This document shows, one piece after another, positions 48,147 to 63,748 of a DNA stretch of 63,748 bases. The translations under genes and the position numbers were made by a program. Source of the stretch: Minisyncoccota bacterium. GTDB lineage: Bacteria > Patescibacteriota > Minisyncoccia > Phycocordibacterales > Phycocordibacteraceae. The stretch is taken from assembly GCA_041665205.1 (NCBI GenBank), contig JBAYJI010000001.1, positions 1-63,748 on the forward strand, in the 5' to 3' direction. Within the stretch, counting starts at the first letter, position 1; each line of letters starts with the position of its first letter. The notes below the pieces were generated by a model. That model was not told where the DNA came from. It saw only the letters and a list, made by a program, of their open reading frames with translations, and made no database searches.

Positions 48147-51100
48147 ATGCGCGTTCGGAACGTCGCGTTATTTTTTATCAGCTGCGCGTTTGCGTTCAGC
48201 GTGTCGCCGATTGTCGCTACTGCTGCCTCTAATCCGACCGTGCTTATTGCACGGTTCGCAATGCCCCAGGTCTCAAAATCCTGGTACGGCATGTATGAGA
48301 CGGCACTGAAGACTGGCGATACTCCTCAGTTGAAGACATGTATCGAGAGTCCTCAAGGTAAACCGACGGTAACGGTTGACCTCTCGCAATTAGGGGTTTC
48401 GTCGAGTACGTGGGTAGTCAGCGGCAATTCGGGTACTCTTCTGGTTGGCAATGTGTATCACTACTCAGTCTACTGCTACGACTACGGATTCACTATCGGC
48501 GCTGATGCGGCAGTTTCTGACGGATTAAAGACCGTATCTATATCGGCTGTTGACTCGTCTGGCACCACCGCTTCAGGTACCGCACAAGTAGCGGTCGATG
48601 ACGCTCTGCCGACGCTTTCGCTCACCGATATCTCGTTCTCCGCTGTGCCATTAAAAGGGGGCGACAGTGTGTATCTGAGCGGATTAGCAGACGGGACCGG
48701 GAGTCCTTTGTCGGCGTTTCAAATTAAGGGGACATTTTTGGATACGGAAAGGAATATCGTGCTCCAGTCCTTTTACAAGAGAGACGTGCTTACTGCGGCT
48801 ATCGCCACCTCGACCGACGGTTCCTTTAACCGCGTTGCATTTGCTCTCGGTGACAATGAGGCGAGAATCATCTCAGCCGCTCCTTCCTTAAGAATCGACA
48901 TTATTGCGTACGACGGATCCGGACACACCGCGACAACGAGTTTGGAGGTTCCGGTTCCGAAGCCACCTCCGCCCGACCCGTGCATTGCCGCCGGCACCTG
49001 TGTCTCAAATGTCCTCTTCTTGCCGGGTATCGAGGGGAGCCGGCTCTACGAGGGGACGGGCTGCGGCAAGGCTGCCGAAGAGAAACTCTGGGAGCCGTAC
49101 GAGTCACTCTGGGGTGTGTTGCGCAGCGCAGGTGACAAGAAGGCGCGAGACCTCGCCCTCGACTCGTCGGGTGCGAGTGTCTGCACCGATATTTATACAA
49201 AGGAGGGCGACGTGATCGACACAGTCCGCGGCAGCAATATCTACAAGTCATTTCTCGACGAGATGAACGGGCTCAAGGCGGACGGTACGATAAACGATTG
49301 GAAGCCAGTCGCCTACGACTGGCGGTTCTCGCTCGACGACCTGCTCAGTAAGGGTACTGAGCGCGCCGGCAAAATCTATTACGAAGAAGCGACGAGCACG
49401 CCGTACATCGAACAGACGCTTCGCGCGCTGGCAGCGGGCTCGAAGAGCGGCAAAGTGACGATCGTCGCGCACAGCAACGGCGGCCTTGTGACGAAGGCGC
49501 TCTTGAACAGGCTCGGTGGTGCAGCGTCGTCCTTGGTGGACAAGGTCGTGATGGTGGGCGCGCCGCAGAGCGGCGCGCCCGAGAGTCTCGGCGCAGCACT
49601 CATGGGCTACAACGCCGGTATCTACAAATACGGTTTCCCTATCCTCTCAAACGCTGCCGCGCGCTCACTCGCGCAGAACCTGCCGATGACGTACCACCTA
49701 CTCCCGTCAAGCGAGTACCTAGAGAGTATCGCGAGCGACGAAGAACACCCCGTCGCCCGCTTCGCGGGCGACGGCTACGCGCGCGAGATCGCGGCATACG
49801 GCTCTACCATCACGAACACGACTGAGCTTGGCGACTTCCTCCTTGCACGCGAGGGCGGTCGCAAGAAGCCGAAGGAGTATGACCTGGGCTCTGCAGAGGT
49901 TTTGAATCAGGGACTCATAGACTACGCGAACAACACACACTCGATCCTCGACTTGTGGACTCCGCCTGCGGGTATCGAGGTGAGCCAGATCGCCGGTTGG
50001 GGAGCCGACACGGTCGCGGGGATAGACTTCTACACTGAGCCGTCCCGAATCCGCTCCTTTTTCGGGCCGAAGCGGAGGTATAAGCCGATATTTATCGAGG
50101 ATGGCGACGGGACAGTCCCTGTCCCGAGCGCGCTCCTGGTCGCCTCGAGCACTAGTGTAAAGAGGTATTGGGTTGATTTGAATTCTTATCGTATTGCAAC
50201 ATCAATAAAACGTGACCATAAAGATTTATTTGAAATCCCCTCGCTTGAAGAATGTATCAAGAACATCATTAAGAATGTCACCGGCACCTTGCCCCCGTAC
50301 ATCTCGACGAGCCAGCCGGCGCCAATCGCAGATGACAAGAAGCTTGTCTTCTTCCTCCGCTCGTCGCGCGTCCTCTACGTGCGAGACTCTCCTGAGAGCG
50401 AGGAGCCTCCGGTGAAGGTCACGATGCAGGTCAAGGACCCTTCGGGCAAGATTACCGGTATCGCAGAGGACGACTCGGTTACCGAAGACATCCCCGACTC
50501 GACGTACGGCGAGTTCGGCGAGGTGCAATACCTGATCGTCCCCGCAAGTGCAACACCGGGCAGCCGCTACGAGCTCACGCTTCACGGGCAGGCGAGCAGC
50601 GGGGGAGTGAGCGGCGCACAAGAGAGCACCTTCTCGCTCGAGATCCAAGAGAGCTCGGGCGGCGTCGCGACCGCTCTCGCGACTCTCGCAGATATCCCCG
50701 TGGTCGCGAGCACTACCGCGAGCCTCACTATCGGAGCGAACATCGACACTGTCTCGCCGCTTGTGGTCGACGAGCGTGGCGATGGCACCGAGACTCTCAC
50801 CGTCACACCTGTCGTCGGTGAGACCGTGCTCTATGAGCCGCCGGTCGTCGAGACACCTCCTGCACCAGCTCAAGCAGCTCGCGCTGCCGGCGGCCCGGGC
50901 TACTCGCCGTACCTGCCGCTCGCTGTCTCGACCCCTGCTTCTCTATCACTTGTTGTTCTCGAAGCCTCTACGACAACGCTTCTCGCTACTGCGACCGCCA
51001 CTCCTGCGGCTGCCGTCCCGCGTATCGTCACGCCGCGACTTGTAGCAGCTCCCCGTGCCTCTAATCCTGCGAGTACTCCGCTCTCACCGAGCGCTATCGC

Positions 51101-51233
51101 AAACGCGTTCCCCGACCTCTCGCAGACCGCCTCGGTTTATGGCGCTTCTCAACAGCCGGTCTTAAAGAAGATAGGCGAAGCGGTCTATACTAGTCTCTAT
51201 AGGCTCTGGGCTGCCTTAAAGGGATTCTTCTAA
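48147..51233 (+). CDS. Large secreted LCAT/PGAP1-like alpha/beta-hydrolase (phospholipase/acyltransferase-type lipase) with N-terminal Ig-like and C-terminal Pro/Ala/Thr-rich regions
   Basis: Signal peptide VALFFISCAFAFSVSPIVATAAS. LCAT-family motif AYDWR (YDWR codons 49314-49325). Nucleophile elbow VAHSNGG (Ser codon 49473-49475). Confidence 0.7.
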   Translation: MRVRNVALFFISCAFAFSVSPIVATAASNPTVLIARFAMPQVSKSWYGMYETALKTGDTPQLKTCIESPQGKPTVTVDLSQLGVSSSTWVVSGNSGTLLVGNVYHYSVYCYDYGFTIGADAAVSDGLKTVSISAVDSSGTTASGTAQVAVDDALPTLSLTDISFSAVPLKGGDSVYLSGLADGTGSPLSAFQIKGTFLDTERNIVLQSFYKRDVLTAAIATSTDGSFNRVAFALGDNEARIISAAPSLRIDIIAYDGSGHTATTSLEVPVPKPPPPDPCIAAGTCVSNVLFLPGIEGSRLYEGTGCGKAAEEKLWEPYESLWGVLRSAGDKKARDLALDSSGASVCTDIYTKEGDVIDTVRGSNIYKSFLDEMNGLKADGTINDWKPVAYDWRFSLDDLLSKGTERAGKIYYEEATSTPYIEQTLRALAAGSKSGKVTIVAHSNGGLVTKALLNRLGGAASSLVDKVVMVGAPQSGAPESLGAALMGYNAGIYKYGFPILSNAAARSLAQNLPMTYHLLPSSEYLESIASDEEHPVARFAGDGYAREIAAYGSTITNTTELGDFLLAREGGRKKPKEYDLGSAEVLNQGLIDYANNTHSILDLWTPPAGIEVSQIAGWGADTVAGIDFYTEPSRIRSFFGPKRRYKPIFIEDGDGTVPVPSALLVASSTSVKRYWVDLNSYRIATSIKRDHKDLFEIPSLEECIKNIIKNVTGTLPPYISTSQPAPIADDKKLVFFLRSSRVLYVRDSPESEEPPVKVTMQVKDPSGKITGIAEDDSVTEDIPDSTYGEFGEVQYLIVPASATPGSRYELTLHGQASSGGVSGAQESTFSLEIQESSGGVATALATLADIPVVASTTASLTIGANIDTVSPLVVDERGDGTETLTVTPVVGETVLYEPPVVETPPAPAQAARAAGGPGYSPYLPLAVSTPASLSLVVLEASTTTLLATATATPAAAVPRIVTPRLVAAPRASNPASTPLSPSAIANAFPDLSQTASVYGASQQPVLKKIGEAVYTSLYRLWAALKGFF

Positions 51234-51237
51234 AAAA

Positions 51238-51648
51238 ATGAAAACCAAATTCATACAATGTATACCAGCCGTACTCGTTCTAGTAGCTATTGGATTTCGG
51301 TACTTTAGTCAGTGGTGTATTCTTACGGATTCATCATGCTATGGCACATGGGTGCATTGGATTTATCTAGAGATCACTAATCCGGTATTTTATTTCACTC
51401 TCTTTTGTTTACCAATCACCATCGTCCTTGCCTTCGTGCCGTGGGGAGTGTTCAAGTCTTGGCTCAAGCTCGCAGCGTGGGCGGTGCCGCTCCTCCTCTT
51501 CTGGGTCTCGACGCAGCCGGTGTACCCGGGCTTTCTCTCGACCGACCGGGACGACGCGGCACGGCTCGCCGGGGGAGTCTTCGCGGGTGTGAGTCTCGCT
51601 CTCCTTATCTGGCGATCAATCGCCGCCCGGCGAGCAGGGGAGAGATAG
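51238..51648 (+). CDS. Small integral membrane protein, unknown function
   Basis: Four hydrophobic segments. Starts 4 nt after the lipase stop. Confidence 0.55.
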   Translation: MKTKFIQCIPAVLVLVAIGFRYFSQWCILTDSSCYGTWVHWIYLEITNPVFYFTLFCLPITIVLAFVPWGVFKSWLKLAAWAVPLLLFWVSTQPVYPGFLSTDRDDAARLAGGVFAGVSLALLIWRSIAARRAGER

Positions 51649-54228: not shown

Positions 54229-54276
54229 TTGTGCACAGCTCTTCCATACCAGCCGAGATATGGCTATACTGTGGGT

Positions 54277-55041
54277 ATGGATGAGATTCTCATAGGGGAG
54301 AAGAAGTACGTATCGTCGAAACAAGCAGCCAAGCTCACCGGCTACGCTAAGGATTATGTCGGCCAACTCTGCCGCGAGGGCAGGGTGCCGGCACGGCTCG
54401 TAGGCCGCAGTTGGTACGTACTCGAGTCGGCGATTCACGATCACCGATTTAACGAGCAGAGTGAAGAGAAGGAGAGTCAGCCCGAGAACGCAGCCCTCGC
54501 CTCGACGTGGGAGGCTCCGCACTACGAGGCTATTCCTGCAGACGTGCTCCCTGTACAGAATCCTGAAGAACTCCTCGAGAAAGAAGCAGAAGATGACGGA
54601 AAGATAATGAATTTTGCGACCCCGCAGAATCTCCAGGACTCTTGGAAGGCGTGGTTTGATCGGATCGAGAACCCAAAAGCGGCCGCCCCAAGCGCACCGA
54701 GCAAGGTAGAAGAGCGAGAAATAGAGAGCAGAGAGGTCAGTGTGCCCGTGCACGCGATCCACCACCCCGAGTACAAGCCGCTCCCTGAAGAGCTCTCACC
54801 ACGGCGTACGCGCCTCGCGGCGACGCAGCCGGTGCGTGAAGAGGAGTATGAGCAAGAAATGCCGCGTAGAGAAGAAAGGAGAACAGGGAGGAGACTCGGA
54901 GCAGCATTTCAACTAGTCGGTGCGCTTGTCGCACTTGTGATGGCCTCTCTTGCCGTAGTCGGGAGTGGATACTTTGACGAATATATCATATCGACTAATC
55001 AAGCTGGGATGTTCGCCGGTGTAGGACTCTATAATAGGTAG
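54277..55041 (+). CDS. Membrane-anchored protein with N-terminal excisionase/MerR-type HTH, acidic linker and C-terminal TM helix
   Basis: YVSSKQAAKLTGYAKDYVGQLCREGRVPARLVGRSWYVLESAI (HTH_17-like). Glu-rich middle. LGAAFQLVGALVALVMASLAVVGSGYF near the C-terminus. TATACT 54265-54270 lies 6 nt before the ATG. Confidence 0.7.
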   Translation: MDEILIGEKKYVSSKQAAKLTGYAKDYVGQLCREGRVPARLVGRSWYVLESAIHDHRFNEQSEEKESQPENAALASTWEAPHYEAIPADVLPVQNPEELLEKEAEDDGKIMNFATPQNLQDSWKAWFDRIENPKAAAPSAPSKVEEREIESREVSVPVHAIHHPEYKPLPEELSPRRTRLAATQPVREEEYEQEMPRREERRTGRRLGAAFQLVGALVALVMASLAVVGSGYFDEYIISTNQAGMFAGVGLYNR

Positions 55042-55112
55042 CGTATCTATTATGTATCTCGTCTCGGATATACGAGATATATATAGAAGCGCACTGATGT
55101 CTGCATCGCTTC

Positions 55113-55142: not shown

Positions 55143-55713
55143 GTTGGTGTGGGATGATTTTAGATCAAAATGGCTCTGCCTTAGACAAAGTGGCGTACAA
55201 GAAAGACTTATACAGAAGAATAATGAAGTCATGTGCGCACAATGTCCTGAATGCAACGTTTTGCGAACTTGTGTGAGAAAAATGCTGAGTGAATGATTTT
55301 ATTTGTTACTGAGAAAAGCGATCGGTGATGCATACGAGCTGACCTCTCTTCGGATATCCGACATATCTAGCATATACATTATATATAGTGAGATTGGCAT
55401 GTGCCTCAAACGACATAAACTTTTATGCATGGTATCTGAGGATCCGCCAGAGAGCGATTTAGAGCTCTAAAAGTGATTTTCTACAGGTTCATTTCATCGA
55501 AATAGCTCCACAGAGCTCTCTAGAGACGGTCGAGAGCGCTCTTGGGCGTGTGCAGAGGCGCTGCCGGGAGGGCTTCTGTAGCAAATAAAAAATCTTTTGA
55601 TAACGCTGAGAGCATTTTTATTTTGCTCAGGAATCTTATCCACACAATGCATTAATTTTTTTCACTAAACGCCAGGATAGTACGTTATTATTTAGTTAAT
55701 TCGGTTATCCGAC

Positions 55714-58700
55714 ATGACTCCTTCTCTCAACGAAAACTTAATCACCACGAAGGATGCCGGAGAGCTCTCTGGGTACAATCCTGACTATCTCGCACGTCTC
55801 GCACGTTCAGGAAAAATCTCCGGGAAGAGAATCGGTCACAGCTGGCTGATCGAGCGAGAGTCGCTCGATCAGTTTCTCGGTCAGCAGGGCGATCGCAAGA
55901 TTGATTACGCGCGCGCGCTTGCGCGCGCGCGAACAGAAGAGTATCAAGCGAACCGTGCTCCCTTGCGCCGCGTCGTGCGCACGTTGGCAAGGCCGGTACA
56001 GAGCCCACAGATCTCGCCGCTCACCACGCTTGTGGAGAGCTCCTTCCGTTCGCACGCGGTGGCGCTCGCGGTCGCCCTGCTTGTTGTGGGCACTGGGGCA
56101 GTCGGTGCGCGTGCCGCGGCGATCTCGCAGCTTGCAGGGGCGACCGCTTCGCTCATGCGCGAAGTCGCGTACGGGTTTGATGCGGCGTTCGGTGGCACTA
56201 CCTCTGGCATCAGGGCGAAGTTCGCTGAGGTGAATGACGCGATGCGTGCAGAGCGAGCGCGCGTTGCAGAAAATAATCTCGCCACATCTGCTCGCCTCGC
56301 CTCGCCAGAGATTCTCGCGTTTGATCTCGAGGCAACGCGCATGGTACTTACCAGCGAGCCTCGCGCTCATGTCGCATCTCGATTTGAAAGTCGGACATTG
56401 TCGGCATCGGCGAACACATCGATCGTCACGAGCGATGATCTTAAAACATTTGCACGCGACACGTACGCGCTCGCCACACATCCGTCGCGCATCGTGAGTA
56501 CCGTCGGCACGAGCGCCTACGGCGCGATCGGTGCGGCGCTTGCGGGCTATCGCACGCTCCTCGAACAGTCGGGGGTGCGGGCGCTCGCGCTCGGCGTCGC
56601 GACGCGCGACGCGCTCTCTCGTGCACCAGCTGCCAGCGCACGGCTCTCAGCGCAGACAGTACTCGCACTCGGCCAAGGCGTGATCGACGCGACGCATGCC
56701 CTGATCGCCGCTGACGTCAGCCTCGCCTACAGCACTGCCGCCGCGGCACCGGCGAGCGCTCGCGCGACGGTCGCACTAATCGGCTCTACTGGGGACGTGC
56801 TTGCAGGCGCGACCGCGCGCGTACCCGCCCTCGCTGCCGCAGCCTTCTTGCACACAACCGAGATCCCTGCCCGCGTCGCACCGGCAATCGCAGAGACGGT
56901 CTTCGAGGCAGAATACGCGGCCGCGACGCGTTTCGTCCCGCTTGCGCACGCACTCTCTCGCCAGTATCTCGCGCTTGTCCTCGGCACCGGTCGCCTCACC
57001 TACACAGCCACCGACCACACGCTCGCTCTCGCCGCTTCTGCAGGAGCGAGGCTCCCGCAAACGTTCTCGCAACCATGGAAGTCAGACTTCCATACTGTCG
57101 GCATTGCAATAGAAGACGCGTATCTCGGCGCACTCGGCAAGACAGCTGCTGCCATCGAATATGGAATATCGAATATCGAAAATAGAATCGATCACGTGCC
57201 GCAGGTGGCGGCAGCGCTCGCAGCGGTCGGACCCGCGCTCTCTGCGGGCGAGAGAGTGGCGCTCTCTACCTACGAGACTCTCCACGGCTTCTTCATCTCG
57301 ACGACAAGCGCACTTGCAGCGTTCTTCTCTACGACGCCTCCGCTCGTGCTCCCGACCGGCGTACCGAAAGCGCGTGTGATTACGGTCGCAACTTCAGCAA
57401 AACCTACCCCCTACAACCTACCCCCCACAACCTCGAATTCGTATCCCACCTACACCACCATAAACGGCGTTTCGCTTGACTACGTGAGTCAGTCGCTCGA
57501 CACGATGCGTAACAATATCCTCGCGACGGTCGCCGGCATGATCCAGCCGGTCGCGTACCAGACAGCGGGTAACTCGACGACGATCCAGTATGTGAGTATG
57601 ATGCAGGATCTCTCGGGTATCACGATTCGGGACGGCAGCTTCCGCGGGGGGACGTTCGACGGCGGTACCGTGTCGAACGGCATCTCGGTCTCGGCGACCG
57701 CCGGCACCTTCGGCAGTCTCGTCGCGACGAACGCGAACTTCACGAGTCTCACCGCGGGCGCGACGAGCCTCGCGACGACGACCATCACCGGCTCTCTCGC
57801 TGTCGGCACTAGCTCGCCGTGGGGGAATGGCCTCCTGACGGTCGGCACCTCGACGCCGCTCCTTCACATCAGCAGCAACACCGGTAACATCGGTATCGGG
57901 ACGTCAGTACCAGTAGCTCCTCTGCAAGTAAATGGCGGAGTATTTACTCCACTAGGTGGCGTTATCGGCACGACGGTATTTTCTCAATATTCCGGAATTG
58001 GAACATCTGGAATTATTACCCAAGGTGATGGACAGACTACAGGAGGAGGGATATTCGTTGCTACGGGAGATAATCAATGGTCCTCGAACCTTGAGTTTAT
58101 AAAATCTAGGACCAGTGATGGGCTGACAAACAAGGCCGTTCAATACGGCGACCAAATCGGTTTTATCGGTTTTAACGGTGATGACGGAACAACAGTGGCT
58201 CCAGCTAATGCATGGATGCAAGGCATTGTGGACGGAAGTGTTTCAACCGGAGTAGTCCCAATAGCAATTACGTTTAGTACTCAAAGTAACGGCGTGTTTC
58301 CTCCCACTGAAAGATTAAGGATTGCAAGTGATGGCAACGTCGGTATCGGCACCACATCGCCATTCGCACAGCTCTCGATCTCTAACTCCGCGACTACTGC
58401 CGCGAACACCCCACTCTTCACCATCGCCTCCACCACGAGCGGTCTCTCTACCACGACTCTCATGACCGTGCTCGCAAATGGGAATGTGGGCATCGGGACG
58501 ACGACGCCAGCATTTCCATTGGATATATTCAGCAGTACCGTAGCAGCTACAATAGACTTAACAGGGAGCGGACAAGGGGCAAACTTCCGCGCGACCCGTT
58601 ACTCTGATGACACCGTTGCCGCATTCCAGTCTCAACGTAAGGCAAGGGGTACTGCCTTAAATCCAGCCATCGTGCAGTCGGGAGATGTCGCCGGTAATCT

Positions 58701-61700
58701 TGCTTTCAACGGATATGACGGTTCTGCGTTTCGAGTACTCGCTACTGTTCAGGGAGTTGTCGATGGAACACCTGGTGCATCGGATATGCCCGGCCGCCTC
58801 GTGTTCAATACAACTGCCGATGGAGCATTTCTCGCATCAGAACGTATGCGTATCACAAGTGCCGGCTATGTCGGCATCGGGACGACGAGTCCGAGCCAAT
58901 TATTGAGCGTGCACGGCAACGGTCTCTTTTCGGGCGACATCTTCGCCGCCAACATCACCGCCACCGGCACACTCTCAGTGAGTACTATCACCGCCCCCGC
59001 TGCGCTCTCCATCTCGAGCACTGGCGCGGGCGACCTCACCCTCGATGCTGGTTCCGGCTCTATCAATATCGCTTCAGGCGACGACATTCTCGCCGTCGGC
59101 GCGAATTCAAATATCGGCTCGATTGGTGTTAAGTTCAACACCATTTATGCAGACACCATTTCAGCGACCACGCTCGTCGGCGTGGTGGTCGGCGGTGTGA
59201 CCAACTCCGCCGATTGGGTTATCAATAATGATAACGCTTCCGACGACACCGAGCCGATGACGCTCGCCTTCGAACGCGGCACGGTGACACCAAATGCGCT
59301 ACTCACCTGGAACTCCGCCGATTCTGCGAAGCGCTTCGAATTCAACCAGCCACTCTTCATTCAGGACGTCTCCGCCTCCGCCGCCTACACTCTCGACGTC
59401 TCCGGTCTCGGCCACTTCACCGGCCTCGTCGATGCTTCGTATTTTGTGGCGACGACGACCACCGCAACGAGTACATTCGCAGGTGGGCTCACTGTCGGTA
59501 CCAGTCAATTGGTGGTTCAGCACAGCACCGGCAACGTCGGTATCGGTACGACGACGCCATGGGCGCAGCTCTCCATCAACCCGAACGGCATCACGGGTCC
59601 GGCATTTGCGATCGGTTCCTCCACCGTCACGAACTTCGTTGTGACGAACGGCGGTAAGGTCGGGATTGGGACGAGCCCCTCCACCAACGATTTGTTGACA
59701 ATTTCCGGAAACGGCAATAATGCCTATGTTCAACTCATAAGCACAGACGGAACGGATACTGGCATAGGTATTACTTCAGGCAGCGGTCAAACATCGTATG
59801 TTTATGTCGGAGGCAACAACCAGTCGGATCTTCGGTTTTGGACAAATGGGGGAGACCGCATGATGATAAATGCCGACGGCAATGTTGGCATCGGGACGAC
59901 ATCACCGTACGCGCAACTCTCCATCTCTAATTCTGCAACCACCGCCGCGAACACCCCACTCTTCACCATCGCCTCCACCACGAGTGGTCTCTCTACCACG
60001 ACTCTCATGACCGTGCTCGCAAATGGGAATGTGGGAATCGGGACGACGAGTCCGACAAATACACTCGGAGTGAACGGATTCATCGACACTGGCCCCACCT
60101 TCGGCTACAAGCAGAATAACAACCTAATCCTGTATGCATCCAGCACCATCTCATCAGTATTTGGCGGGCAAGGTGCGGGTGCGAGAGTGATTGCGAACGC
60201 AACTTCCAGCTCCGTAACTTCTGGTATCTATGCCACCGCCTTTGGGCATCTAGCACTCGGTAATGCAACATCATCAGCGTATGGAAGCACCGCCGTCGGC
60301 TACAGGGCGCTTCAAAGTAGTGCGACAGGGGGTGGAACCGCCGGAGAAAACACAGCAGTTGGTGCTTGGGCACTCTACCAAAATACGAGCGGGTACGACA
60401 ATACCGCTAACGGTCTGCTAGCTCTTCAGAGTAACACCACGGGTAGCTACAACAACGCATTTGGTACTTGGGCACTCTCATCAAATACCACGGGTCTCTC
60501 CTCTGTTGCTAACGGCACGAGTGCTCTCTTCTACAGTAACGGAGACTTTAATTCAGGTTTTGGAAATGACACCGGTTACAATCCGGACAACGATATTGCT
60601 CAATACCGCATAGTTGACGACACGAACATGACATTTCTCGGTAATGGAGCTACAAAAGACAACGCATCAACTCTCACAAATGGTACTGCCCTTGGCAATG
60701 GCGCCCATGTTCTAGCAAGTAATCAGGTCGTGTTAGGTAATGATAACGTTACAACTACGCTACTTAAAGGCAGCGTCGGCATCGGGACGACGAGTCCGTC
60801 CTCGCTCCTCTCACTTTCAAACTCCGCCTCCACTCCCATCGACACCCCGCTCTTCACGATTGCTTCGACGACAGGCGGCACCTCGACCTCGACACTCATG
60901 ACCGTGCTGGCAAATGGGAATGTGGGCATTGGGACGAATGCCCCGACCAACCTTCTGGGTCTGTATAGCAGTACCGCTGCGACAGCTGCAATAACGGGTG
61001 ACGGAGGGACATCATCTCTTAACATCTATCGTTACTCGAATGACACTTCAAGCAGCGCGTCTATAAAGCAATATGCAGCCCGGGGAAGTCTTGCGTCACC
61101 GAGCGTAGTTGTTGAGGGTGACTCGATCGGGAACAATCAATACTACGGCTATGACGGCGGAGGTTTCCGTGTCCTTGCTACAATATCCCCGCTCGCTGGC
61201 ATTGTTAATGGTGTAAACGATTTCTCCGGCATTCTTACGTTCAAAACGCGCCCTACTGGTGTCGGGGCGAGCAATCTCGAGCGAATGCGTATTGATTCCA
61301 ACGGGAACGTCGGGATCGGGACGACGAGTCCGTATTCGCTCTTGAGCGTGCAGGGCAATAGTTATGTGAGTGGCACAAGCTTCTTCGGCGGGGCAGTCAC
61401 CGCAACATCAACACTCACACTCACCGCACTCGGCACACCGGCAGGCAGCATGCTCGCGGTTGATGCAACCGGCAAGTTCATCGCGACCTCGACTGTCTCG
61501 GTCGCGAATCTCGCCCTCGCGAAAGGCAACTTCCTCGTCGGCGATGATGCGGGCGTTGCGCGGGCAACCTCCTCTATCTTCATCTCTTCTGCGGGCTACG
61601 TCGGCATCGGGACGACGACGCCGACAGAGAAGTTGGATATCAATAACGGGGCGGTGGGTACAGTACAAGGGGCATTGAGAATAGAAGGGACGCTGAACGC

Positions 61701-63748
61701 GGCAGACACGGGACACTCTATTGATTTCTTTGCTGGTTCGGCAAACACTGGTGCAGCGGCAAATGCTTACGCGCGAATTGCAGGAGTTACTGATTCTGGT
61801 GGCGTGGGCGGGGTATTGGCACTCTACACAAACAGTGGACTTGGAGCAGTCGCGTCAGTTGAAAGAATGAGAATAGATAGACAAGGCAACGTCGGCATCG
61901 GGACGACCACTCCAGGTGCAAAACTCGCCATCAACCTCCCCGCCACCGGTCTCGGCATGTATCTCGCAGGATACGCCAGTGGGACAGGGGCACTCTTCAG
62001 CATCAGCACCTCCACCGCCTCCGCCACCACCACGGCATTTCAGATTGATAACAATGGGAAGGTGTCAGTCGGTTCTGGCACCGCCACTCTTGATTTCAAT
62101 GTGCAAGGGCAGTCCTATTTCAGCGGCAACGTCGGCATCGGGACGACGAGTCCGGCATACAAACTGGATGTCGCCGGATTCATCAACACCGACCAGTTCA
62201 GCGGGTATAAGCAGGCGGGGAATACGATTTTGTATGCGTCATCAACATCATTCACCACTTTCGGCGGTATCAACGCAGGGACGGGAATAATAGGTGGTGC
62301 AAGTGTGGCAAACGTCTACTCGACTGCCTTTGGGTACAACGCCATGCAAAACGCGACAACCTCTCAAGTATCAAGTACGGCGTTTGGGTACAACGCATTG
62401 AAAGGCAGTGCAACGATAAGTAACACTGGCGGGAATAGCGCGTTTGGATACAATACATTGACTAGCATCACTTCAGGGAGTAACAACTCCGCGTTCGGCA
62501 GTAGTGCTCTCGGTGTAAACACATCAGGGGCCGACAACAATGCGTTCGGTAGAGTTGCACTCCAACTAAACACCACTGGCACTACTAATAATGCCTTCGG
62601 TGAATATACGCTTCAGTTAAATACGTCAGGTACTTCCAACTCGGCGTTCGGTCACGCGGCTTGTGCTGGCAACACGACGGGTGCTGGCAACAACTGTGTT
62701 GGTAATTATTCACTGCGATACAATAACGGCTCGAACAACGTGGCGAACGGCAGTCTTGCAGGGCTAGGATTAACCAACGCGATAAATGACTACAACTCTC
62801 TTAGCGACAGCAACATGACCTTTATCGGTGCTTTATCCTCTCGTGACGGAAGCGTAGTCGCTTCGACAACCTCACTCACAAACGGGACGGCAATTGGCTA
62901 CGGTTCGCAGGTCGGTGCCTCAAATTCCCTCGTGCTTGGTGGGTTGTACGCAAATGCGGTCAAGGTCGGCGTGGGTACCTCGACTCCTTATGCAAAGCTA
63001 TCTATCCACGCGGTATCCGGCGAGACGAACACGACACTCTTTGCGATTGCCTCATCTACCGCGAGTGCGACGACGACACTCTTTTCTATCTTGAATACGG
63101 GTAACGTGGGCATCGGGACGACGAGTCCGGCAGTTGCGCTTGATGTCTCCAGCACTGATACCACAAACGGGCAACTTCGACTCGAGAATGGCGGTGCGTA
63201 TACGTCGTTTATTGTAGAGGCAGACGGCTCTTTGTTTATCAAACCGAATAACGCGGCGACCTTTTTTGGGGCATACAATTCCGTGAGCTCCGTTCGTATT
63301 CTGAACAACATTCAGGTAAATAGCAATGTGAGTTCATACTTCAACGGCACAGGTAATCTTGGGATTGGGACGACGAGTCCGTATGCAAAGTTATCAGTTT
63401 CAGCACTAAATCCGACTGCGCCGCTCTTCGCGGTTGATTACGGAACGGGTACAGCCACCTCGTCAGCACTGTATATTTCAAGTAGCGGTAACGTCGGCAT
63501 CGGGACGACGAGTCCCGGCTCGATCCTCTCCATCCAAGGCGTCGCCAACTTCACCACCGGTACTACCACCTTCTACGGCAATGGCATCAACATCCCTGCG
63601 AGTCAGTGTTACGCCGTCGGTGGGACGTGTCTCTCGAGTGGTGGGGGTGCGGCCGCGGGCATTGCTGGCGCTGTCCAATTTTCTGACGGAGCTACGTTTG
63701 CCAGTGACACACTTTTCTTCTGGAACAACACCACTAAGTCGCTCGGCA
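55714..63748 (+). CDS. Giant surface fibre protein, 5' part (>=2,678 codons, runs off the right edge): N-terminal HTH, single TM, Ala-rich region, then repetitive tail-fibre-like and YadA-head-like modules
   Basis: Frame 1 is open from ATG 55714 (in-frame TAG at 55693-55695 upstream) to the window end. Missing from the ORF track because it has no stop. HTH LITTKDAGELSGYNPDYLARLARSGKISGKRIGHSWLIERESL. TM AVALAVALLVVGTGAVGA (~56053-56109). 18 in-frame GNVGIGTTSP-type motifs. Confidence 0.85.
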   Translation, partial: MTPSLNENLITTKDAGELSGYNPDYLARLARSGKISGKRIGHSWLIERESLDQFLGQQGDRKIDYARALARARTEEYQANRAPLRRVVRTLARPVQSPQISPLTTLVESSFRSHAVALAVALLVVGTGAVGARAAAISQLAGATASLMREVAYGFDAAFGGTTSGIRAKFAEVNDAMRAERARVAENNLATSARLASPEILAFDLEATRMVLTSEPRAHVASRFESRTLSASANTSIVTSDDLKTFARDTYALATHPSRIVSTVGTSAYGAIGAALAGYRTLLEQSGVRALALGVATRDALSRAPAASARLSAQTVLALGQGVIDATHALIAADVSLAYSTAAAAPASARATVALIGSTGDVLAGATARVPALAAAAFLHTTEIPARVAPAIAETVFEAEYAAATRFVPLAHALSRQYLALVLGTGRLTYTATDHTLALAASAGARLPQTFSQPWKSDFHTVGIAIEDAYLGALGKTAAAIEYGISNIENRIDHVPQVAAALAAVGPALSAGERVALSTYETLHGFFISTTSALAAFFSTTPPLVLPTGVPKARVITVATSAKPTPYNLPPTTSNSYPTYTTINGVSLDYVSQSLDTMRNNILATVAGMIQPVAYQTAGNSTTIQYVSMMQDLSGITIRDGSFRGGTFDGGTVSNGISVSATAGTFGSLVATNANFTSLTAGATSLATTTITGSLAVGTSSPWGNGLLTVGTSTPLLHISSNTGNIGIGTSVPVAPLQVNGGVFTPLGGVIGTTVFSQYSGIGTSGIITQGDGQTTGGGIFVATGDNQWSSNLEFIKSRTSDGLTNKAVQYGDQIGFIGFNGDDGTTVAPANAWMQGIVDGSVSTGVVPIAITFSTQSNGVFPPTERLRIASDGNVGIGTTSPFAQLSISNSATTAANTPLFTIASTTSGLSTTTLMTVLANGNVGIGTTTPAFPLDIFSSTVAATIDLTGSGQGANFRATRYSDDTVAAFQSQRKARGTALNPAIVQSGDVAGNLAFNGYDGSAFRVLATVQGVVDGTPGASDMPGRLVFNTTADGAFLASERMRITSAGYVGIGTTSPSQLLSVHGNGLFSGDIFAANITATGTLSVSTITAPAALSISSTGAGDLTLDAGSGSINIASGDDILAVGANSNIGSIGVKFNTIYADTISATTLVGVVVGGVTNSADWVINNDNASDDTEPMTLAFERGTVTPNALLTWNSADSAKRFEFNQPLFIQDVSASAAYTLDVSGLGHFTGLVDASYFVATTTTATSTFAGGLTVGTSQLVVQHSTGNVGIGTTTPWAQLSINPNGITGPAFAIGSSTVTNFVVTNGGKVGIGTSPSTNDLLTISGNGNNAYVQLISTDGTDTGIGITSGSGQTSYVYVGGNNQSDLRFWTNGGDRMMINADGNVGIGTTSPYAQLSISNSATTAANTPLFTIASTTSGLSTTTLMTVLANGNVGIGTTSPTNTLGVNGFIDTGPTFGYKQNNNLILYASSTISSVFGGQGAGARVIANATSSSVTSGIYATAFGHLALGNATSSAYGSTAVGYRALQSSATGGGTAGENTAVGAWALYQNTSGYDNTANGLLALQSNTTGSYNNAFGTWALSSNTTGLSSVANGTSALFYSNGDFNSGFGNDTGYNPDNDIAQYRIVDDTNMTFLGNGATKDNASTLTNGTALGNGAHVLASNQVVLGNDNVTTTLLKGSVGIGTTSPSSLLSLSNSASTPIDTPLFTIASTTGGTSTSTLMTVLANGNVGIGTNAPTNLLGLYSSTAATAAITGDGGTSSLNIYRYSNDTSSSASIKQYAARGSLASPSVVVEGDSIGNNQYYGYDGGGFRVLATISPLAGIVNGVNDFSGILTFKTRPTGVGASNLERMRIDSNGNVGIGTTSPYSLLSVQGNSYVSGTSFFGGAVTATSTLTLTALGTPAGSMLAVDATGKFIATSTVSVANLALAKGNFLVGDDAGVARATSSIFISSAGYVGIGTTTPTEKLDINNGAVGTVQGALRIEGTLNAADTGHSIDFFAGSANTGAAANAYARIAGVTDSGGVGGVLALYTNSGLGAVASVERMRIDRQGNVGIGTTTPGAKLAINLPATGLGMYLAGYASGTGALFSISTSTASATTTAFQIDNNGKVSVGSGTATLDFNVQGQSYFSGNVGIGTTSPAYKLDVAGFINTDQFSGYKQAGNTILYASSTSFTTFGGINAGTGIIGGASVANVYSTAFGYNAMQNATTSQVSSTAFGYNALKGSATISNTGGNSAFGYNTLTSITSGSNNSAFGSSALGVNTSGADNNAFGRVALQLNTTGTTNNAFGEYTLQLNTSGTSNSAFGHAACAGNTTGAGNNCVGNYSLRYNNGSNNVANGSLAGLGLTNAINDYNSLSDSNMTFIGALSSRDGSVVASTTSLTNGTAIGYGSQVGASNSLVLGGLYANAVKVGVGTSTPYAKLSIHAVSGETNTTLFAIASSTASATTTLFSILNTGNVGIGTTSPAVALDVSSTDTTNGQLRLENGGAYTSFIVEADGSLFIKPNNAATFFGAYNSVSSVRILNNIQVNSNVSSYFNGTGNLGIGTTSPYAKLSVSALNPTAPLFAVDYGTGTATSSALYISSSGNVGIGTTSPGSILSIQGVANFTTGTTTFYGNGINIPASQCYAVGGTCLSSGGGAAAGIAGAVQFSDGATFASDTLFFWNNTTKSLG
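58399..58503 (+). repeat. 105-nt segment nearly identical (2 mismatches) to 59944-60048
   Basis: GCCGCGAACACCCCACTCTTCACCATCGCCTCCACCACGAG[C/T]GGTCTCTCTACCACGACTCTCATGACCGTGCTCGCAAATGGGAATGTGGG[C/A]ATCGGGACGACG. Confidence 0.9.
59944..60048 (+). repeat. Second copy of the 105-nt near-identical segment
   Basis: See 58399-58503. The flanks are only loosely similar. A third, more diverged copy lies at ~60840-60940. Confidence 0.9.

What the first reader, a model, noticed from the sequence alone, without database searches (positions are those of the whole stretch)
55714..63748. Giant open-ended gene (>=2,678 codons) that the supplied ORF track does not show
Reading frame 1 from ATG 55714, the first ATG after an in-frame TAG at 55693-55695, I find no stop codon up to the last base of the window. 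The ORF track lists only stop-bounded ORFs. Over these 8 kb it therefore shows only <=224-aa shadows in frame 2 and on the minus strand.

All 18 GNVGIGTTSP-type motifs between 57883 and 63507 are congruent with 55714 modulo 3. This independently supports an uninterrupted frame.

Architecture:
- cytoplasmic excisionase/MerR-type HTH (55714-~55870)
- one hydrophobic helix (~56053-56109)
- a ~420-aa Ala-rich region
- more than 2,000 aa of Gly/Thr/Asn/Ser-rich fibre modules, continuing past the window edge

This is the largest and least conventional object in the window. It is a plausible cell-cell or host-attachment fibre.
Basis: partly seen in the sequence, partly recalled or inferred. Interest (0 to 1): 0.85.

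Follow-up and report, generated by a model that had tools for sequence, protein, structure and literature searches.

The report
Giant membrane-anchored tail-fibre-like surface protein
The window ends inside a real 3,230-codon gene of an ultrasmall (Patescibacteria/Kaiserbacteria-type) bacterium that encodes a very long phage-tail-fibre-like surface fibre, rooted in the cell membrane and carrying a small DNA-binding-type domain on its cytoplasmic end; it is a good candidate for how these symbionts grip their hosts.

Summary
From ATG 55714 frame 1 is open for 2,678 codons to the last base of the window. The other five frames hold 68-128 stops, and all 18 G-x-V-G-I-G-T motifs are in frame.

The window is a whole 63,748-bp contig. 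A second public contig overlaps its last 2,048 bp without a mismatch and completes the gene at 3,230 codons.

Architecture:
- a cytoplasmic excisionase-type HTH
- one membrane helix
- a roughly 425-aa Ala-rich helical region
- about 2,150 aa of mosaic fibre, homologous to Bdellovibrio MAT fibres and cyanophage tail fibres
- a Peptidase_S74 intramolecular-chaperone domain with its Ser-Lys pair
- a conserved C-terminal module

Intact relatives of 3,046-4,883 aa have the same ends.

The gene sits in conserved housekeeping synteny in Kaiserbacteria and Paceibacteria. It always follows a small HTH-membrane partner gene and has a nearly invariant 31-nt leader.

My best reading is a type-II-anchored trimeric adhesin that folds from its C-terminal chaperone. 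The adhesive role and the role of the HTH are inferred, not shown. I found no paper describing the family. I rate it a new variant of a known kind.

The parts
54277..55041 (+). Partner gene (254 aa): N-terminal HTH_17, acidic linker, single TM helix near the C-terminus. The true start is ATG 54277, not the TTG at 54229 in the ORF list.
   Evidence: Pfam HTH_17 scores 27.3 bits. Its HTH is paralogous to the giant's HTH (E 1e-12). It lies directly upstream of the giant gene in 28 of 28 evaluable genomes and in L001, L002, L007 and L008. The family has 1,506 members, all about 240-296 aa and unnamed.
55051..55083 (+). Conserved hairpin (TCTCGTCTCG-N6-CGAGA) just after the partner gene's stop; possibly a terminator.
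   Evidence: The block is invariant in the 5-locus alignment A2. A similar element follows the first of the two tandem giant genes in L042.
55636..55644 (+). Conserved upstream block TTATCCACA, about 75 nt before the start codon.
   Evidence: Invariant in alignment A2. Also present upstream of the divergent paralogue P0161.
55686..55713 (+). Conserved promoter and leader: a -10-like TATTAT (55686-55691), then TTAGTTAATTCGGTTATCCGAC, ending one base before the ATG. There is no Shine-Dalgarno sequence.
   Evidence: The exact 22-mer occurs once per genome in 32 GTDB species genomes (one MAG has two), always followed by ATG and this HTH. In 59 distinct leaders collected through the protein, positions -31 to -1 are mostly >=90% conserved. 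The hexamer varies as TAnnAT.
55714..63748 (+). Giant CDS, 5' part: codons 1-2,678 of 3,230. The stop lies 1,658 nt beyond the window end.
   Evidence: no stop. (2,048-bp overlap with L009, 0 mismatches, merged ORF of 3,230 aa).
55738..55989 (+). Cytoplasmic excisionase/MerR-type winged HTH (aa 9-58) plus a basic helix (aa 61-92). This is the most conserved part of the protein.
   Evidence: Pfam HTH_17 26.0 bits and TIGR01764. AF2 pLDDT is 77-88 here. Foldseek hits are Pukovnik Xis, BldC, TraN, Tn916 Xis and RacA (probability 0.97-1.0, TM 0.65-0.76, but E > 0.05). Mean identity to 20 homologues is 68.6%, against 23-49% elsewhere.
56050..56118 (+). Single transmembrane helix (aa 113-135), predicted N-in signal anchor.
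   Evidence: It is the only 19-residue stretch with Kyte-Doolittle hydropathy above 1.8. There are 5 K/R in the 30 aa before it and 1 in the 30 aa after.
56119..57393 (+). Ala-rich (23% Ala) family-specific region, predicted all-helical; presumed stalk or anchor outside the membrane.
   Evidence: Conserved in 21 homologues (A1) and in 484 representatives at E<=1e-30. The AF2 model is all-helical but of low confidence, pLDDT 30-45. No Pfam or PDB match.
57394..57813 (+). Conserved neck (YPTYTT..GVS.D.VNQSL ... NGDFRGGTF), where the beta-helical fibre begins.
   Evidence: Alignment A1. Profile positions 650-819 match the solved fibre of Bdellovibrio Bd2133 (8OND, E 3.9e-5).
57814..63748 (+). Mosaic fibre shaft: 18 G-N-V-G-I-G-T-T-x-P capping-loop-type motifs and diverged internal duplications (aa ~866-1135 ~ 1713-1955; aa ~1381-1740 ~ 2050-2468).
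   Evidence: PDB sequence hits to MAT fibres Bd2439 (8OL4, E 1.1e-8), Bd1334 (8OML) and Bd2133 (8OND). PHROG tail-fibre families at E 1e-69 and 6.5e-42. Cyanophage tail fibres match at 30-43% identity. Internal repeats are 40-58% identical at the protein level, with one 73-aa stretch at 84%.
60169..60633 (+). First N-x-A-x-G / NTTG repeat block (approximate bounds), a YadA-head-like beta-roll type.
   Evidence: phrog_4636 tail spike, E 1.2e-8, aa 1486-1593. Consensus NTTGxxNxAxGxxAL in alignment A3.
62281..62793 (+). Second N-x-A-x-G repeat block (approximate bounds), a paralogue of the first.
   Evidence: 41-51% identical to the first block. The AF2 model of the corresponding part of P0022 forms regular short strands, with pLDDT 58-80.

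Best explanation
This is one genuine chromosomal gene of a Kaiserbacteria/Paceibacteria-type Patescibacterium. It has 3,230 codons as assembled, and probably about 3,345 once a 1-nt frameshift near the end of the second contig is discounted.

Proposed mechanism:
1. The first 112 residues stay in the cytoplasm. They form an excisionase-type winged HTH plus a basic helix.
2. Residues 113-135 act as an uncleaved N-in signal anchor. The remaining roughly 3,100 residues are exported.
3. Outside the cell, the C-terminal Peptidase_S74 intramolecular-chaperone domain (Ser2851/Lys2856) brings three chains together. It templates folding of an intertwined triple beta-helix back towards the membrane, then probably cuts itself off.
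4. The product is a homotrimeric fibre on an Ala-rich helical stalk, probably more than 100 nm long. It is held in the cytoplasmic membrane by three helices, with three HTH domains underneath.
5. By homology with Bdellovibrio MAT adhesins and phage receptor-binding fibres, the shaft and tip bind surface glycans of the host cell on which the episymbiont lives.
6. The conserved HTH, the obligatory HTH-membrane partner protein and the invariant leader suggest that expression or anchoring is tightly controlled from the cytoplasmic side.

Shown here: gene integrity, domain order, the homologies, synteny, and conservation of the partner gene and the leader.

Inferred: topology, trimer state, autocleavage, fibre length, adhesion, and any DNA binding.
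For: Gene integrity
- 0 stops in 2,678 codons, against 68-128 in the other frames.
- The window and L009 overlap over 2,048 bp with 0 mismatches, giving a 3,230-aa ORF.
- L009 continues into GAPDH-RpiB-Rpe-Tkt, the same genes found downstream of the orthologue in L002 and L042.
- Intact single-ORF relatives P0169 (3,109 aa), P0161 (3,115), P0143 (3,046) and P0144 (4,883) have the same N-terminal anchor and the same C-terminal module.
- P0017 joins the anchor directly to the C-terminal domain.

Fibre homology
- MAT fibres 8OL4, 8OML and 8OND.
- PHROG tail-fibre families, E 1e-69.
- Cyanophage tail fibres.

S74 domain
- Pfam Peptidase_S74 scores 33.1 bits against a cut-off of 22.
- Ser and Lys are >=90% conserved in alignment A3.
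- The AF2 model has pLDDT 73-92 in this domain. Foldseek's top hits are the MyRF ICA domain (probability 1.0) and the K1F intramolecular chaperone.

Topology
- A single TM helix with a positive-inside bias of 5 K/R before against 1 after.

Cellular rather than phage context
- Conserved synteny Wzy_C/TPR-MurB-SecA-Obg-GatB-partner-giant.
- The partner gene is upstream in 28 of 28 evaluable loci.

What the MAT family does is taken from Caulton et al. 2024 (PMC10769870).
Against: - No experiment or expression data bear on this gene.
- The HTH_17 score is just under Pfam's gathering cut-off (26.0 against 27).
- The residue after the catalytic Ser is Ser, not the consensus Asp (SSERYK against SDxRxK), so autocleavage might be impaired.
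- Monomer AF2 models of both the Ala-rich region and the shaft are of low confidence (mean pLDDT 42 and 50), so trimer state and length are extrapolations.
- One lineage keeps only a 401-aa fibre-less version (P0019). The N-terminal module may therefore have a function that does not need the fibre, or that copy may be a decaying gene.
- The middle 3.6 kb of the gene has no assembly support independent of the window and its identical ENA twin.
Confidence: 0.68

Rival explanations
1. The protein is mainly a contact sensor: a membrane-tethered one-component regulator. The fibre reports binding or pulling by the host surface through the membrane helix to the trimerised HTH domains. These, perhaps together with the partner HTH protein, then change transcription, including transcription of the gene itself. 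This is compatible with adhesion. The rival claim is that signalling is the selected function of the cytoplasmic end.
For: - The HTH plus basic helix is the most conserved segment: 68.6% and 60.7% identity, against 23-49% elsewhere.
- Its predicted fold matches DNA-binding excisionases, BldC, TraN and RacA.
- Some relatives carry two tandem HTH_17 domains (L051, L084).
- The gene has an exceptionally conserved 31-nt leader.
- The partner is a second membrane-tethered HTH and is always adjacent.
Against: - The apparent 12-bp palindrome in the leader is not kept by compensatory change. At pair -10/-5 there are 18 deviations and only 1 is compensated. At pair -13/-2 there are 10 deviations and none is compensated.
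- The exact 22-mer leader occurs once per genome in 31 of 32 genomes (twice in one MAG), so no regulon is visible.
- HTH domains on membrane proteins can instead bind proteins; RodZ binding MreB is an example (established knowledge, not tested here).
- No DNA-binding evidence exists for this family.
Confidence: 0.15
2. It is a structural envelope or cohesion fibre, such as a spacer, a sheath, biofilm or self-aggregation filaments, or protection against phages or grazers. On this view it is not a host-recognition adhesin.
For: - Both ends of the protein are conserved, and the gene sits next to cell-envelope genes (MurB, SecA, Wzy_C) and a 44-kb surface-glycan cluster.
- No recognisable lectin or other receptor-binding tip domain was found upstream of the S74 cleavage site.
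Against: - The closest solved relatives are prey-binding MAT adhesins and phage receptor-binding fibres.
- The shaft is mosaic and its length varies between relatives, 3,046-4,883 aa.
- Assemblies break inside it in most genomes although it has no long exact repeats. This fits strain-level diversification of a recognition protein (inference).
Confidence: 0.12
3. It is a phage, prophage or tailocin tail-fibre gene lying in the chromosome, not a cellular protein.
For: Strong PHROG tail-fibre hits, tblastn hits to cyanophage tail fibres and an S74 chaperone domain typical of phage fibres.
Against: - No phage structural, packaging or lysis genes lie nearby.
- The same housekeeping synteny flanks the gene on both sides in many genomes.
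- The N-terminal HTH, TM helix and Ala-rich anchor have no counterpart in virion fibres.
- GC content is ordinary: 0.54-0.63 against a window range of 0.51-0.61.
Confidence: 0.03
4. It is an assembly artefact or a pseudogene: collapsed or chimeric repeats that happen to stay open.
For: Contigs of most relatives end inside the gene. The second contig has a 1-nt frameshift before the last Ig-like domain.
Against: - 3,230 codons stay open by chance only with negligible probability, given 68-128 stops in the other frames.
- The longest exact repeat is 50 nt.
- Three other contigs agree with the window.
- Complete relatives sit on contigs of up to 137 kb.
Confidence: 0.02

Closest known systems
Bdellovibrio bacteriovorus MAT (mosaic adhesive trimer) fibres such as Bd3182, Bd2439, Bd2133 and Bd1334 (Caulton et al. 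2024, PMC10769870)
   Same: - Direct sequence homology of the shaft modules to solved MAT structures (8OL4 E 1.1e-8, 8OML, 8OND).
- The same G-N-V-G-I-G-T-T-x-P type of capping-loop motif; the paper's consensus is V-G-G/N-pi-x-x-P-x-x-x-L.
- Mosaic build, and an S74 chaperone end as in the S74 subgroup.
- Made by a small bacterium that lives on other bacteria.
   Different: - MATs are about 600-1,150 aa, with a cleavable signal peptide and a conserved ~130-aa beta-rich N-terminal domain. They are displayed on a diderm outer surface.
- This protein is three or more times longer. Its N-terminus is a cytoplasmic HTH, a TM anchor and an Ala-rich helical region.
- It has extra conserved domains after the S74 domain.
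- It occurs as a single syntenic gene (sometimes a tandem pair) rather than a family of 21.
Phage tail fibres and tailspikes with a C-terminal intramolecular chaperone (T5 L-shaped fibre pb1, K1F endosialidase; Pfam Peptidase_S74)
   Same: - S74 domain above the Pfam cut-off, with the Ser-Lys pair.
- Fold match to the K1F chaperone 3GW6.
- PHROG tail-fibre families and cyanophage fibres match the shaft.
   Different: - It is not in a phage genome and has no virion-attachment N-terminus. It is membrane-anchored instead.
- About 380 aa follow the catalytic Ser, and about 490 with the frameshifted Ig-like domain: coiled coil, a beta domain and an Ig-like domain.
- The residue next to the catalytic Ser is Ser rather than Asp.
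MyRF (eukaryotic myelin regulatory factor)
   Same: It is the only well-known protein that combines a DNA-binding domain, a membrane helix and an S74-type (ICA) trimerising, self-cleaving domain in one chain. The MyRF ICA domain is the top Foldseek hit of the model (7DC3, probability 1.0).
   Different: The domain order and the side of the membrane differ. MyRF is DBD-ICA-TM, with the ICA domain on the cytoplasmic side, so cleavage frees the DNA-binding trimer. Here the order is HTH-TM-fibre-S74, with S74 outside the cell, so its cleavage cannot release the HTH. The DNA-binding folds are unrelated (Ndt80-type against excisionase-type).
Trimeric autotransporter adhesins (YadA, AtaA and similar)
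   Same: Very long trimeric surface fibres with N-x-A-x-G type beta-roll repeat blocks. JGI labels several homologues of the shaft 'trimeric autotransporter adhesin'.
   Different: There is no C-terminal YadA-type beta-barrel anchor and no Hep_Hag/YadA_head Pfam hit. Anchoring is by an N-terminal helix in the cytoplasmic membrane. Trimerisation is presumably driven by S74.
Bitopic membrane proteins with a cytoplasmic N-terminal HTH (ToxR/CadC-type regulators; RodZ)
   Same: Predicted layout of a cytoplasmic HTH, one TM helix and an extracytoplasmic domain. This applies to both the giant protein and its 254-aa partner.
   Different: The HTH is of the excisionase/MerR (HTH_17) type, not OmpR-type (ToxR) or XRE-type (RodZ). 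The outside part is a 3,100-aa fibre. No DNA or protein partner is known.

Membership tests
Peptidase_S74 / intramolecular-chaperone tail-fibre-like proteins | S74 chaperone domain detected above the curated threshold | tested here: met
   PF13884 scores 33.1 bits against a cut-off of 22, at full-length aa ~2851-2900. This lies on the continuation contig L009, outside the window.
Peptidase_S74 / intramolecular-chaperone tail-fibre-like proteins | Catalytic Ser-Lys pair (S-D-x-x-x-K) | tested here: met
   The sequence is SSERYK, with Ser2851 and Lys2856. Both columns are >=90% conserved in alignment A3. The consensus Asp after the Ser is replaced by Ser.
Peptidase_S74 / intramolecular-chaperone tail-fibre-like proteins | Autoproteolytic release of the chaperone after trimer folding | not testable with these tools
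   This needs protein expression or proteomics.
Bdellovibrio MAT superfamily | Trimeric beta-helix/prism shaft with capping-loop motifs | tested here: met
   Met at the sequence level only. Hits to 8OL4, 8OML and 8OND, and 20 motifs in the full protein. The trimeric state itself was not tested.
Bdellovibrio MAT superfamily | Signal peptide followed by the conserved ~130-aa beta-rich N-terminal domain | tested here: not met
   The N-terminus is an HTH, a TM helix and a region predicted as all-helical. No direct comparison with a Bdellovibrio N-terminal domain sequence was possible.
Bdellovibrio MAT superfamily | Display on the cell surface and binding to prey or host glycans | not testable with these tools
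   This needs microscopy and glycan arrays.
Phage virion tail fibre | Encoded among virion structural genes of a phage or prophage | tested here: not met
   The flanks are MurB, SecA, Obg and GatB upstream, and NYN, GAPDH, RpiB, Rpe and Tkt downstream. This arrangement is conserved across genomes.
Trimeric autotransporter adhesin | C-terminal YadA-type beta-barrel membrane anchor | tested here: not met
   No such Pfam hit in the window part or in the C-terminal part. The C-terminus is S74 plus an Ig-like domain.
Trimeric autotransporter adhesin | Hep_Hag / YadA_head repeats | tested here: inconclusive
   No Pfam hit at E<=1. The N-x-A-x-G / NTTG repeat blocks are of that general type, and one homologue (P0038) carries PF05658.
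HTH_17 / excisionase-type DNA-binding domains | Domain detected above the curated threshold | tested here: inconclusive
   26.0 bits against a cut-off of 27, and TIGR01764 at 20.1 against 28.8. The confident AF2 fold matches Xis, BldC, TraN and RdfS with probability 0.97-1.0, but E > 0.05.
HTH_17 / excisionase-type DNA-binding domains | Binds DNA | not testable with these tools
   The only indirect test failed to support a symmetric operator: the leader palindrome shows no compensatory changes.
Membrane-tethered one-component regulators (ToxR/CadC type) | Cytoplasmic DNA-binding domain, single TM helix, extracytoplasmic sensor domain | tested here: met
   The layout is predicted from hydropathy and the positive-inside rule. 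The DNA-binding domain is not of the OmpR/PhoB type, so this is a resemblance in layout, not homology.
MyRF-like membrane-bound transcription factors | DBD-ICA(S74)-TM order, with ICA cleavage releasing the DBD | tested here: not met
   The order here is HTH-TM-fibre-S74. The S74 domain lies on the other side of the membrane from the HTH.

The most novel reading that the evidence does not exclude
The giant fibre and its small partner form a new kind of contact-sensing device in ultrasmall episymbionts. A phage-derived, S74-folded trimeric fibre is hard-wired through a single membrane helix to an excisionase-type DNA-binding domain. Attachment to, or tension from, a host cell is then read out directly at the chromosome. 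The two membrane-tethered HTH proteins would act on the invariant leader of the fibre gene or on other targets. This would be a bacterial counterpart, built in a different order, of the DBD-plus-S74 logic seen in eukaryotic MyRF.
Probability: 0.12. Interest if true: 0.85.

Novelty: new variant of a known kind. Interest (0 to 1): 0.62.

Why it matters
Most Patescibacteria are thought to live attached to other microbes. Outside the Saccharibacteria, where type IV pili are implicated, the molecules that find and hold the host are essentially unknown.

This locus gives a concrete, widely conserved candidate. It is a single syntenic gene, found here in Kaiserbacteria, Paceibacterota and Minisyncoccia genomes. 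Its shaft is homologous to the prey-binding fibres of Bdellovibrio and to phage receptor-binding fibres.

The shaft is mosaic and varies in length between relatives. It could therefore serve as a sequence marker for host range in metagenomes. It also helps explain why these genomes so often break at this point in assemblies.

Fusing a cytoplasmic DNA-binding-type domain to an extracellular phage-type fibre is unusual. If functional, it would link surface contact to gene control in cells with very few regulators.

Tried and rejected
- **Palindromic operator or RNA hairpin in the leader.** The 12-mer TCGG-N-TATCCGA occurs three times (<=1 mismatch) in the 672-bp upstream region and nowhere else in the window. 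Extra copies are about 24-fold enriched upstream in other genomes, 6 per 25.6 kb against 2 per 203.6 kb. In 59 leaders collected through the protein, however, changes at paired positions are almost never compensated: 1 of 18 at one pair and 0 of 10 at another. I dropped the symmetric-site reading and keep only 'conserved leader'. The first 'copy' (55064) is part of a separate hairpin after the partner gene.
- **Regulon search with the leader.** The exact 22-mer occurs once per genome in 31 of 32 genomes (twice in one MAG), always before this gene.
- **Fold of the Ala-rich region.** The AF2 model built on a 21-sequence alignment is all-helical but has pLDDT 30-45. There are no Pfam, PDB-sequence or profile hits.
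- **Monomer AF2 of the last 1,179 aa.** Only the S74 domain and the N-x-A-x-G roll are usable. The domain after S74 stays unassigned, and a PDB sequence search of the last 402 aa found nothing.
- **Rfam and tRNA scans.** Rfam over the whole window found no family at gathering score. No tRNAs were found.
- **Literature.** Six full-text searches found no description of this family. The giant-gene preprint (10.1101/2023.11.21.568195) and the Patescibacteria-methanogen paper (PMC10936435) do not mention it.
- **Technical failures and retries.** A first look-up of the partner protein with the TTG start failed; the ATG start worked. One large protein alignment failed internally and was redone with 30 sequences.


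Full report
**1. The observation**

Translating window 55693-63747 shows TAG at 55693-55695, a first Met at 55714, then 2,678 sense codons to the end of the window. Over the same stretch the other five frames hold 68-128 stop codons. The ORF list shows nothing longer than 224 aa there because it omits ORFs that run off the sequence.

I count 17 strict G-[NYKS]-[VIL]-G-I-G-T motifs plus one V-K-V-G-V-G-T variant. They run from 57883 to 63487 and all are in frame.

The start codon is well supported. All homologues begin at the aligned Met, and a conserved non-coding leader ends one base before it.

**2. The gene can be completed**

The window is a whole contig of 63,748 bp ('longest_contig'). 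A search with the last 679 residues returned P0022, a 1,179-aa protein that is 100% identical over the shared part and carries Peptidase_S74.

Its contig is L009, NCBI GCA_041671675.1 JBAZBA010000002.1, 42,363 bp. It starts at window position 61701 and overlaps the window end by 2,048 bp with no mismatch. The merged ORF is 3,230 codons, with the stop 1,658 nt past the window end.

Several lines support the join:
- L009 continues into NYN, GIY-YIG, GAPDH, RpiB, Rpe and transketolase. The central-metabolism genes among these are the ones that follow the orthologue in L002 and L042.
- Intact relatives of 3,046-4,883 aa combine the same N-terminal and C-terminal modules in one ORF.
- P0017 fuses the N-terminal anchor directly to the C-terminal domain.

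At L009 ~3640 a 1-nt frame change separates a final Bact_surface_Ig-like domain (82 bits) that relatives have in frame. The true product may therefore be about 3,345 aa.

Collapse of repeats is unlikely. The longest exact internal repeat is 50 nt, and DNA repeat units are 60-89% identical. Other contigs agree with the window where they overlap. An ENA contig is identical over 19.5 kb. A JGI contig from another sample has 1 mismatch in 6.5 kb.

**3. Anatomy (residue numbers; window nucleotides are in the parts list)**

- **aa 9-58: HTH_17.** It scores 26.0 bits against a cut-off of 27. A basic helix follows, to about aa 92. This is the only confidently modelled part of the first 660 residues, with pLDDT 77-88. 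It superposes on excisionases (Pukovnik Xis, Tn916 Xis, RdfS), BldC, TraN and RacA. Foldseek probabilities are 0.97-1.0, but E-values are above 0.05 because the query is long. It is also the most conserved segment, at 68.6% mean identity to 20 homologues, against 23-49% elsewhere.
- **aa 113-135: the only strongly hydrophobic helix**. It has 5 K/R before it and 1 after, which by the positive-inside rule puts the N-terminus inside the cell.
- **aa 136-560: 23% Ala, family-specific.** It is predicted all-helical at low confidence and has no match in Pfam or the PDB.
- **aa 561-700: a conserved neck.** This is where similarity to solved fibres begins (8OND, E 3.9e-5 with the family profile).
- **aa ~700-2,850: the shaft.** It contains diverged internal duplications that are 40-58% identical, with one 73-aa stretch at 84%, and two N-x-A-x-G repeat blocks. 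There are 20 capping-loop-type motifs in the full protein.
- **aa 2,851 onward: Peptidase_S74.** It scores 33.1 bits against a cut-off of 22. The Ser-Lys pair is conserved (SSERYK). The AF2 model is confident here, with pLDDT 73-92. Its best structural matches are the MyRF ICA domain and the K1F endosialidase chaperone.
- **After S74:** a predicted coiled coil, a conserved beta domain (...FITFN..W.V.DK..GSFRVVLS...DVSFDYFLVQTEG), a Pro-rich linker and the out-of-frame Ig-like domain.

**4. What the shaft is related to**

The only solved structures found by sequence are three Bdellovibrio bacteriovorus fibre proteins: Bd2439 (8OL4, E 1.1e-8), Bd1334 (8OML) and Bd2133 (8OND). They belong to the MAT (mosaic adhesive trimer) superfamily.

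According to Caulton et al. 2024 (PMC10769870), MATs have these properties:
- They are intertwined trimeric beta-helices displayed on the predator surface.
- They carry diverse adhesive tips or an S74 chaperone.
- They share capping loops with the consensus V-G-G/N-pi-x-x-P-x-x-x-L.
- One member binds Proteus glycans.

PHROG tail-fibre families match at E 1e-69 and 6.5e-42. A tblastn search of phage genomes finds only cyanophage tail-fibre or 'chaperone of endosialidase' genes, at 30-43% identity over about 200 aa. More than 1,500 proteins from many bacteria share the C-terminal modules. Many are labelled 'tail fiber domain-containing protein' or 'trimeric autotransporter adhesin'.

**5. Organism and context**

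Named homologues of the N-terminal 660 aa come from Candidatus Kaiserbacteria, Paceibacterota and the Patescibacteria group. A profile of this region finds 484 cluster representatives at E<=1e-30 among 1.84 billion. Many are 2,000-4,900 aa long.

The gene order Wzy_C/TPR - MurB - SecA - Obg - GatB - small HTH gene - giant gene is conserved in every locus I read. The first 44 kb of the window encode surface-glycan and glycosylation functions. Nothing phage-like is nearby.

Nearly all database homologues are flagged partial or end at a contig edge. The gene has no long exact repeats, so this suggests strain-level variation in the shaft. That is an inference.

**6. The partner gene and the leader**

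The 254-aa protein encoded at 54277-55041 has an HTH_17 paralogous to the giant's (E 1e-12). It also has an acidic linker and a TM helix close to its C-terminus. It lies directly upstream in 28 of 28 evaluable genomes. Its family has 1,506 members, none with a functional name.

The 672-bp spacer between the two genes is AT-rich (GC 0.41 against 0.56). The 31 nt before the ATG are mostly >=90% conserved in 59 distinct leaders whose proteins are only about 27-64% identical to this one.

The hexamer at -28 to -23 varies as TATTAT, TATCAT, TACTAT, TATGAT or TAAACT, the pattern expected of a -10 box. A transcript would then start about 15-16 nt before the ATG, and there is no Shine-Dalgarno sequence. 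This is an inference.

The 12-mer next to the ATG looks palindromic, but covariation does not support a symmetric site or hairpin. The partner gene has its own conserved upstream block ending in TATACT six nt before its ATG. That suggests a leaderless mRNA.

**7. How it most likely works**

Shown:
- one intact giant gene
- the domain order HTH - TM - helical region - MAT/tail-fibre-like shaft - S74 - C-terminal module
- cellular, syntenic inheritance
- an obligatory partner gene and a conserved leader

Inferred from established knowledge of S74 proteins (K1F endosialidase, T5 pb1, Bd3182) and of signal-anchor topology:
- The chain is exported with its N-terminus held in the membrane.
- The C-terminal chaperone trimerises the three chains, templates the beta-helix and then self-cleaves at Ser2851.

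Scaling from the Bd3182 model (about 550 A for a roughly 900-aa protein), about 2,150 shaft residues would give a fibre well over 100 nm long. That is comparable to the size of the cell itself. This is a rough extrapolation.

Adhesion to the host surface is the most economical function. The role of the cytoplasmic HTH is open. Possibilities are regulation, tethering to DNA (as with RacA) or binding a protein (as with RodZ).

**8. Comparison and novelty**

By its shaft and S74 domain the protein belongs with S74 tail-fibre-like proteins, and it is homologous to MAT fibres. It fails the MAT definition at the N-terminus. It is not a phage gene and not an autotransporter.

The following features are not described in any paper I could find:
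- the fusion to a cytoplasmic excisionase-type HTH and a membrane anchor
- the size
- the conserved post-S74 module
- the partner gene
- the leader

Databases call the protein only 'helix-turn-helix domain-containing protein'. I therefore rate it a new variant of a known kind, of real interest to people working on Patescibacteria-host recognition. Its function is entirely untested.

Noticed in passing
window 55686-55713 (and loci L010-L122): The 31 nt before the giant gene's ATG (TATTAT-TTAGTTAAT-TCGGNTATCCGAC) are mostly >=90% conserved in 59 distinct leaders. This holds although the encoded proteins are diverged to about 27-64% identity to this one. There is no Shine-Dalgarno sequence. The apparent 12-bp palindrome is not maintained by compensatory changes.
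   Followed up: yes
window 54229-54276: The partner gene has its own strongly conserved upstream block: TTGTGCACAGCTCTTCC...AGCCGAGATAYGGCTATACT. The TATACT lies 6 nt before the ATG, which suggests a leaderless mRNA. The ORF list's TTG start at 54229 falls inside this non-coding block; the real start is ATG 54277.
   Followed up: partly
L009 3620-3710 (beyond the window end): A single-base frame change in a Pro-rich linker cuts off a final Bact_surface_Ig-like domain (PF16403, 82 bits). Relatives carry this domain in frame. It is either an assembly or sequencing error, or a recent mutation in the part of the protein that lies after the S74 cleavage site.
   Followed up: partly
L042 1-13766: One relative, on a 137-kb contig, has two complete giant genes in tandem (2,732 and 3,115 aa). 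The second has a divergent HTH and a different leader. They are followed by a small 23S_rRNA_IVP/bAvd-like gene of the kind that accompanies diversity-generating retroelements. No reverse transcriptase was seen in the 4 kb read.
   Followed up: no
L002 10001-11206: In one lineage the orthologue is a complete 401-aa protein with the HTH, the TM helix and part of the Ala-rich region, but no fibre. Its leader is degenerate. Either the N-terminal module can stand alone or this copy is decaying.
   Followed up: partly
P0017 (711 aa, ENA); L051 and L084: P0017 joins the N-terminal anchor directly to the conserved post-S74 beta domain, so it is a natural fibre-less deletion or a chimeric contig. Some members (L051, L084) carry two tandem HTH_17 domains at the N-terminus.
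   Followed up: no
window 48147-51648: A 1,028-aa LCAT/alpha-beta-hydrolase-like protein and a 136-aa ORF lie between SecA and Obg in this genome. They are absent from that position in L001, L002, L007 and L008, so this looks like a lineage-specific insertion.
   Followed up: no
window 1-44624: Most of the contig upstream is a surface-glycan and glycosylation cluster. It includes an NAD-dependent epimerase/dehydratase, a DegT-family aminotransferase and a class-III aminotransferase, a B12-binding radical-SAM enzyme and an AMP-binding enzyme. It also has two PMT_2 glycosyltransferases, an ABC exporter and a Wzy_C/TPR protein. The PMT_2 enzymes could glycosylate the Ser/Thr-rich fibre; this is speculation.
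   Followed up: no
L009 4799-7075: Downstream of the giant gene lies a 758-aa protein. It fuses an N-terminal GIY-YIG nuclease domain to a hydrophobic segment and about 650 aa of Thr/Gly/Ser-rich repeats. This is an odd combination.
   Followed up: no
window 63748 (contig end): Two assemblies, the 63.7-kb window and a 59.5-kb ENA contig, stop at exactly the same base inside the gene. No exact repeat longer than 50 nt exists there, so the break is more likely due to strain variation or coverage than to repeats.
   Followed up: partly
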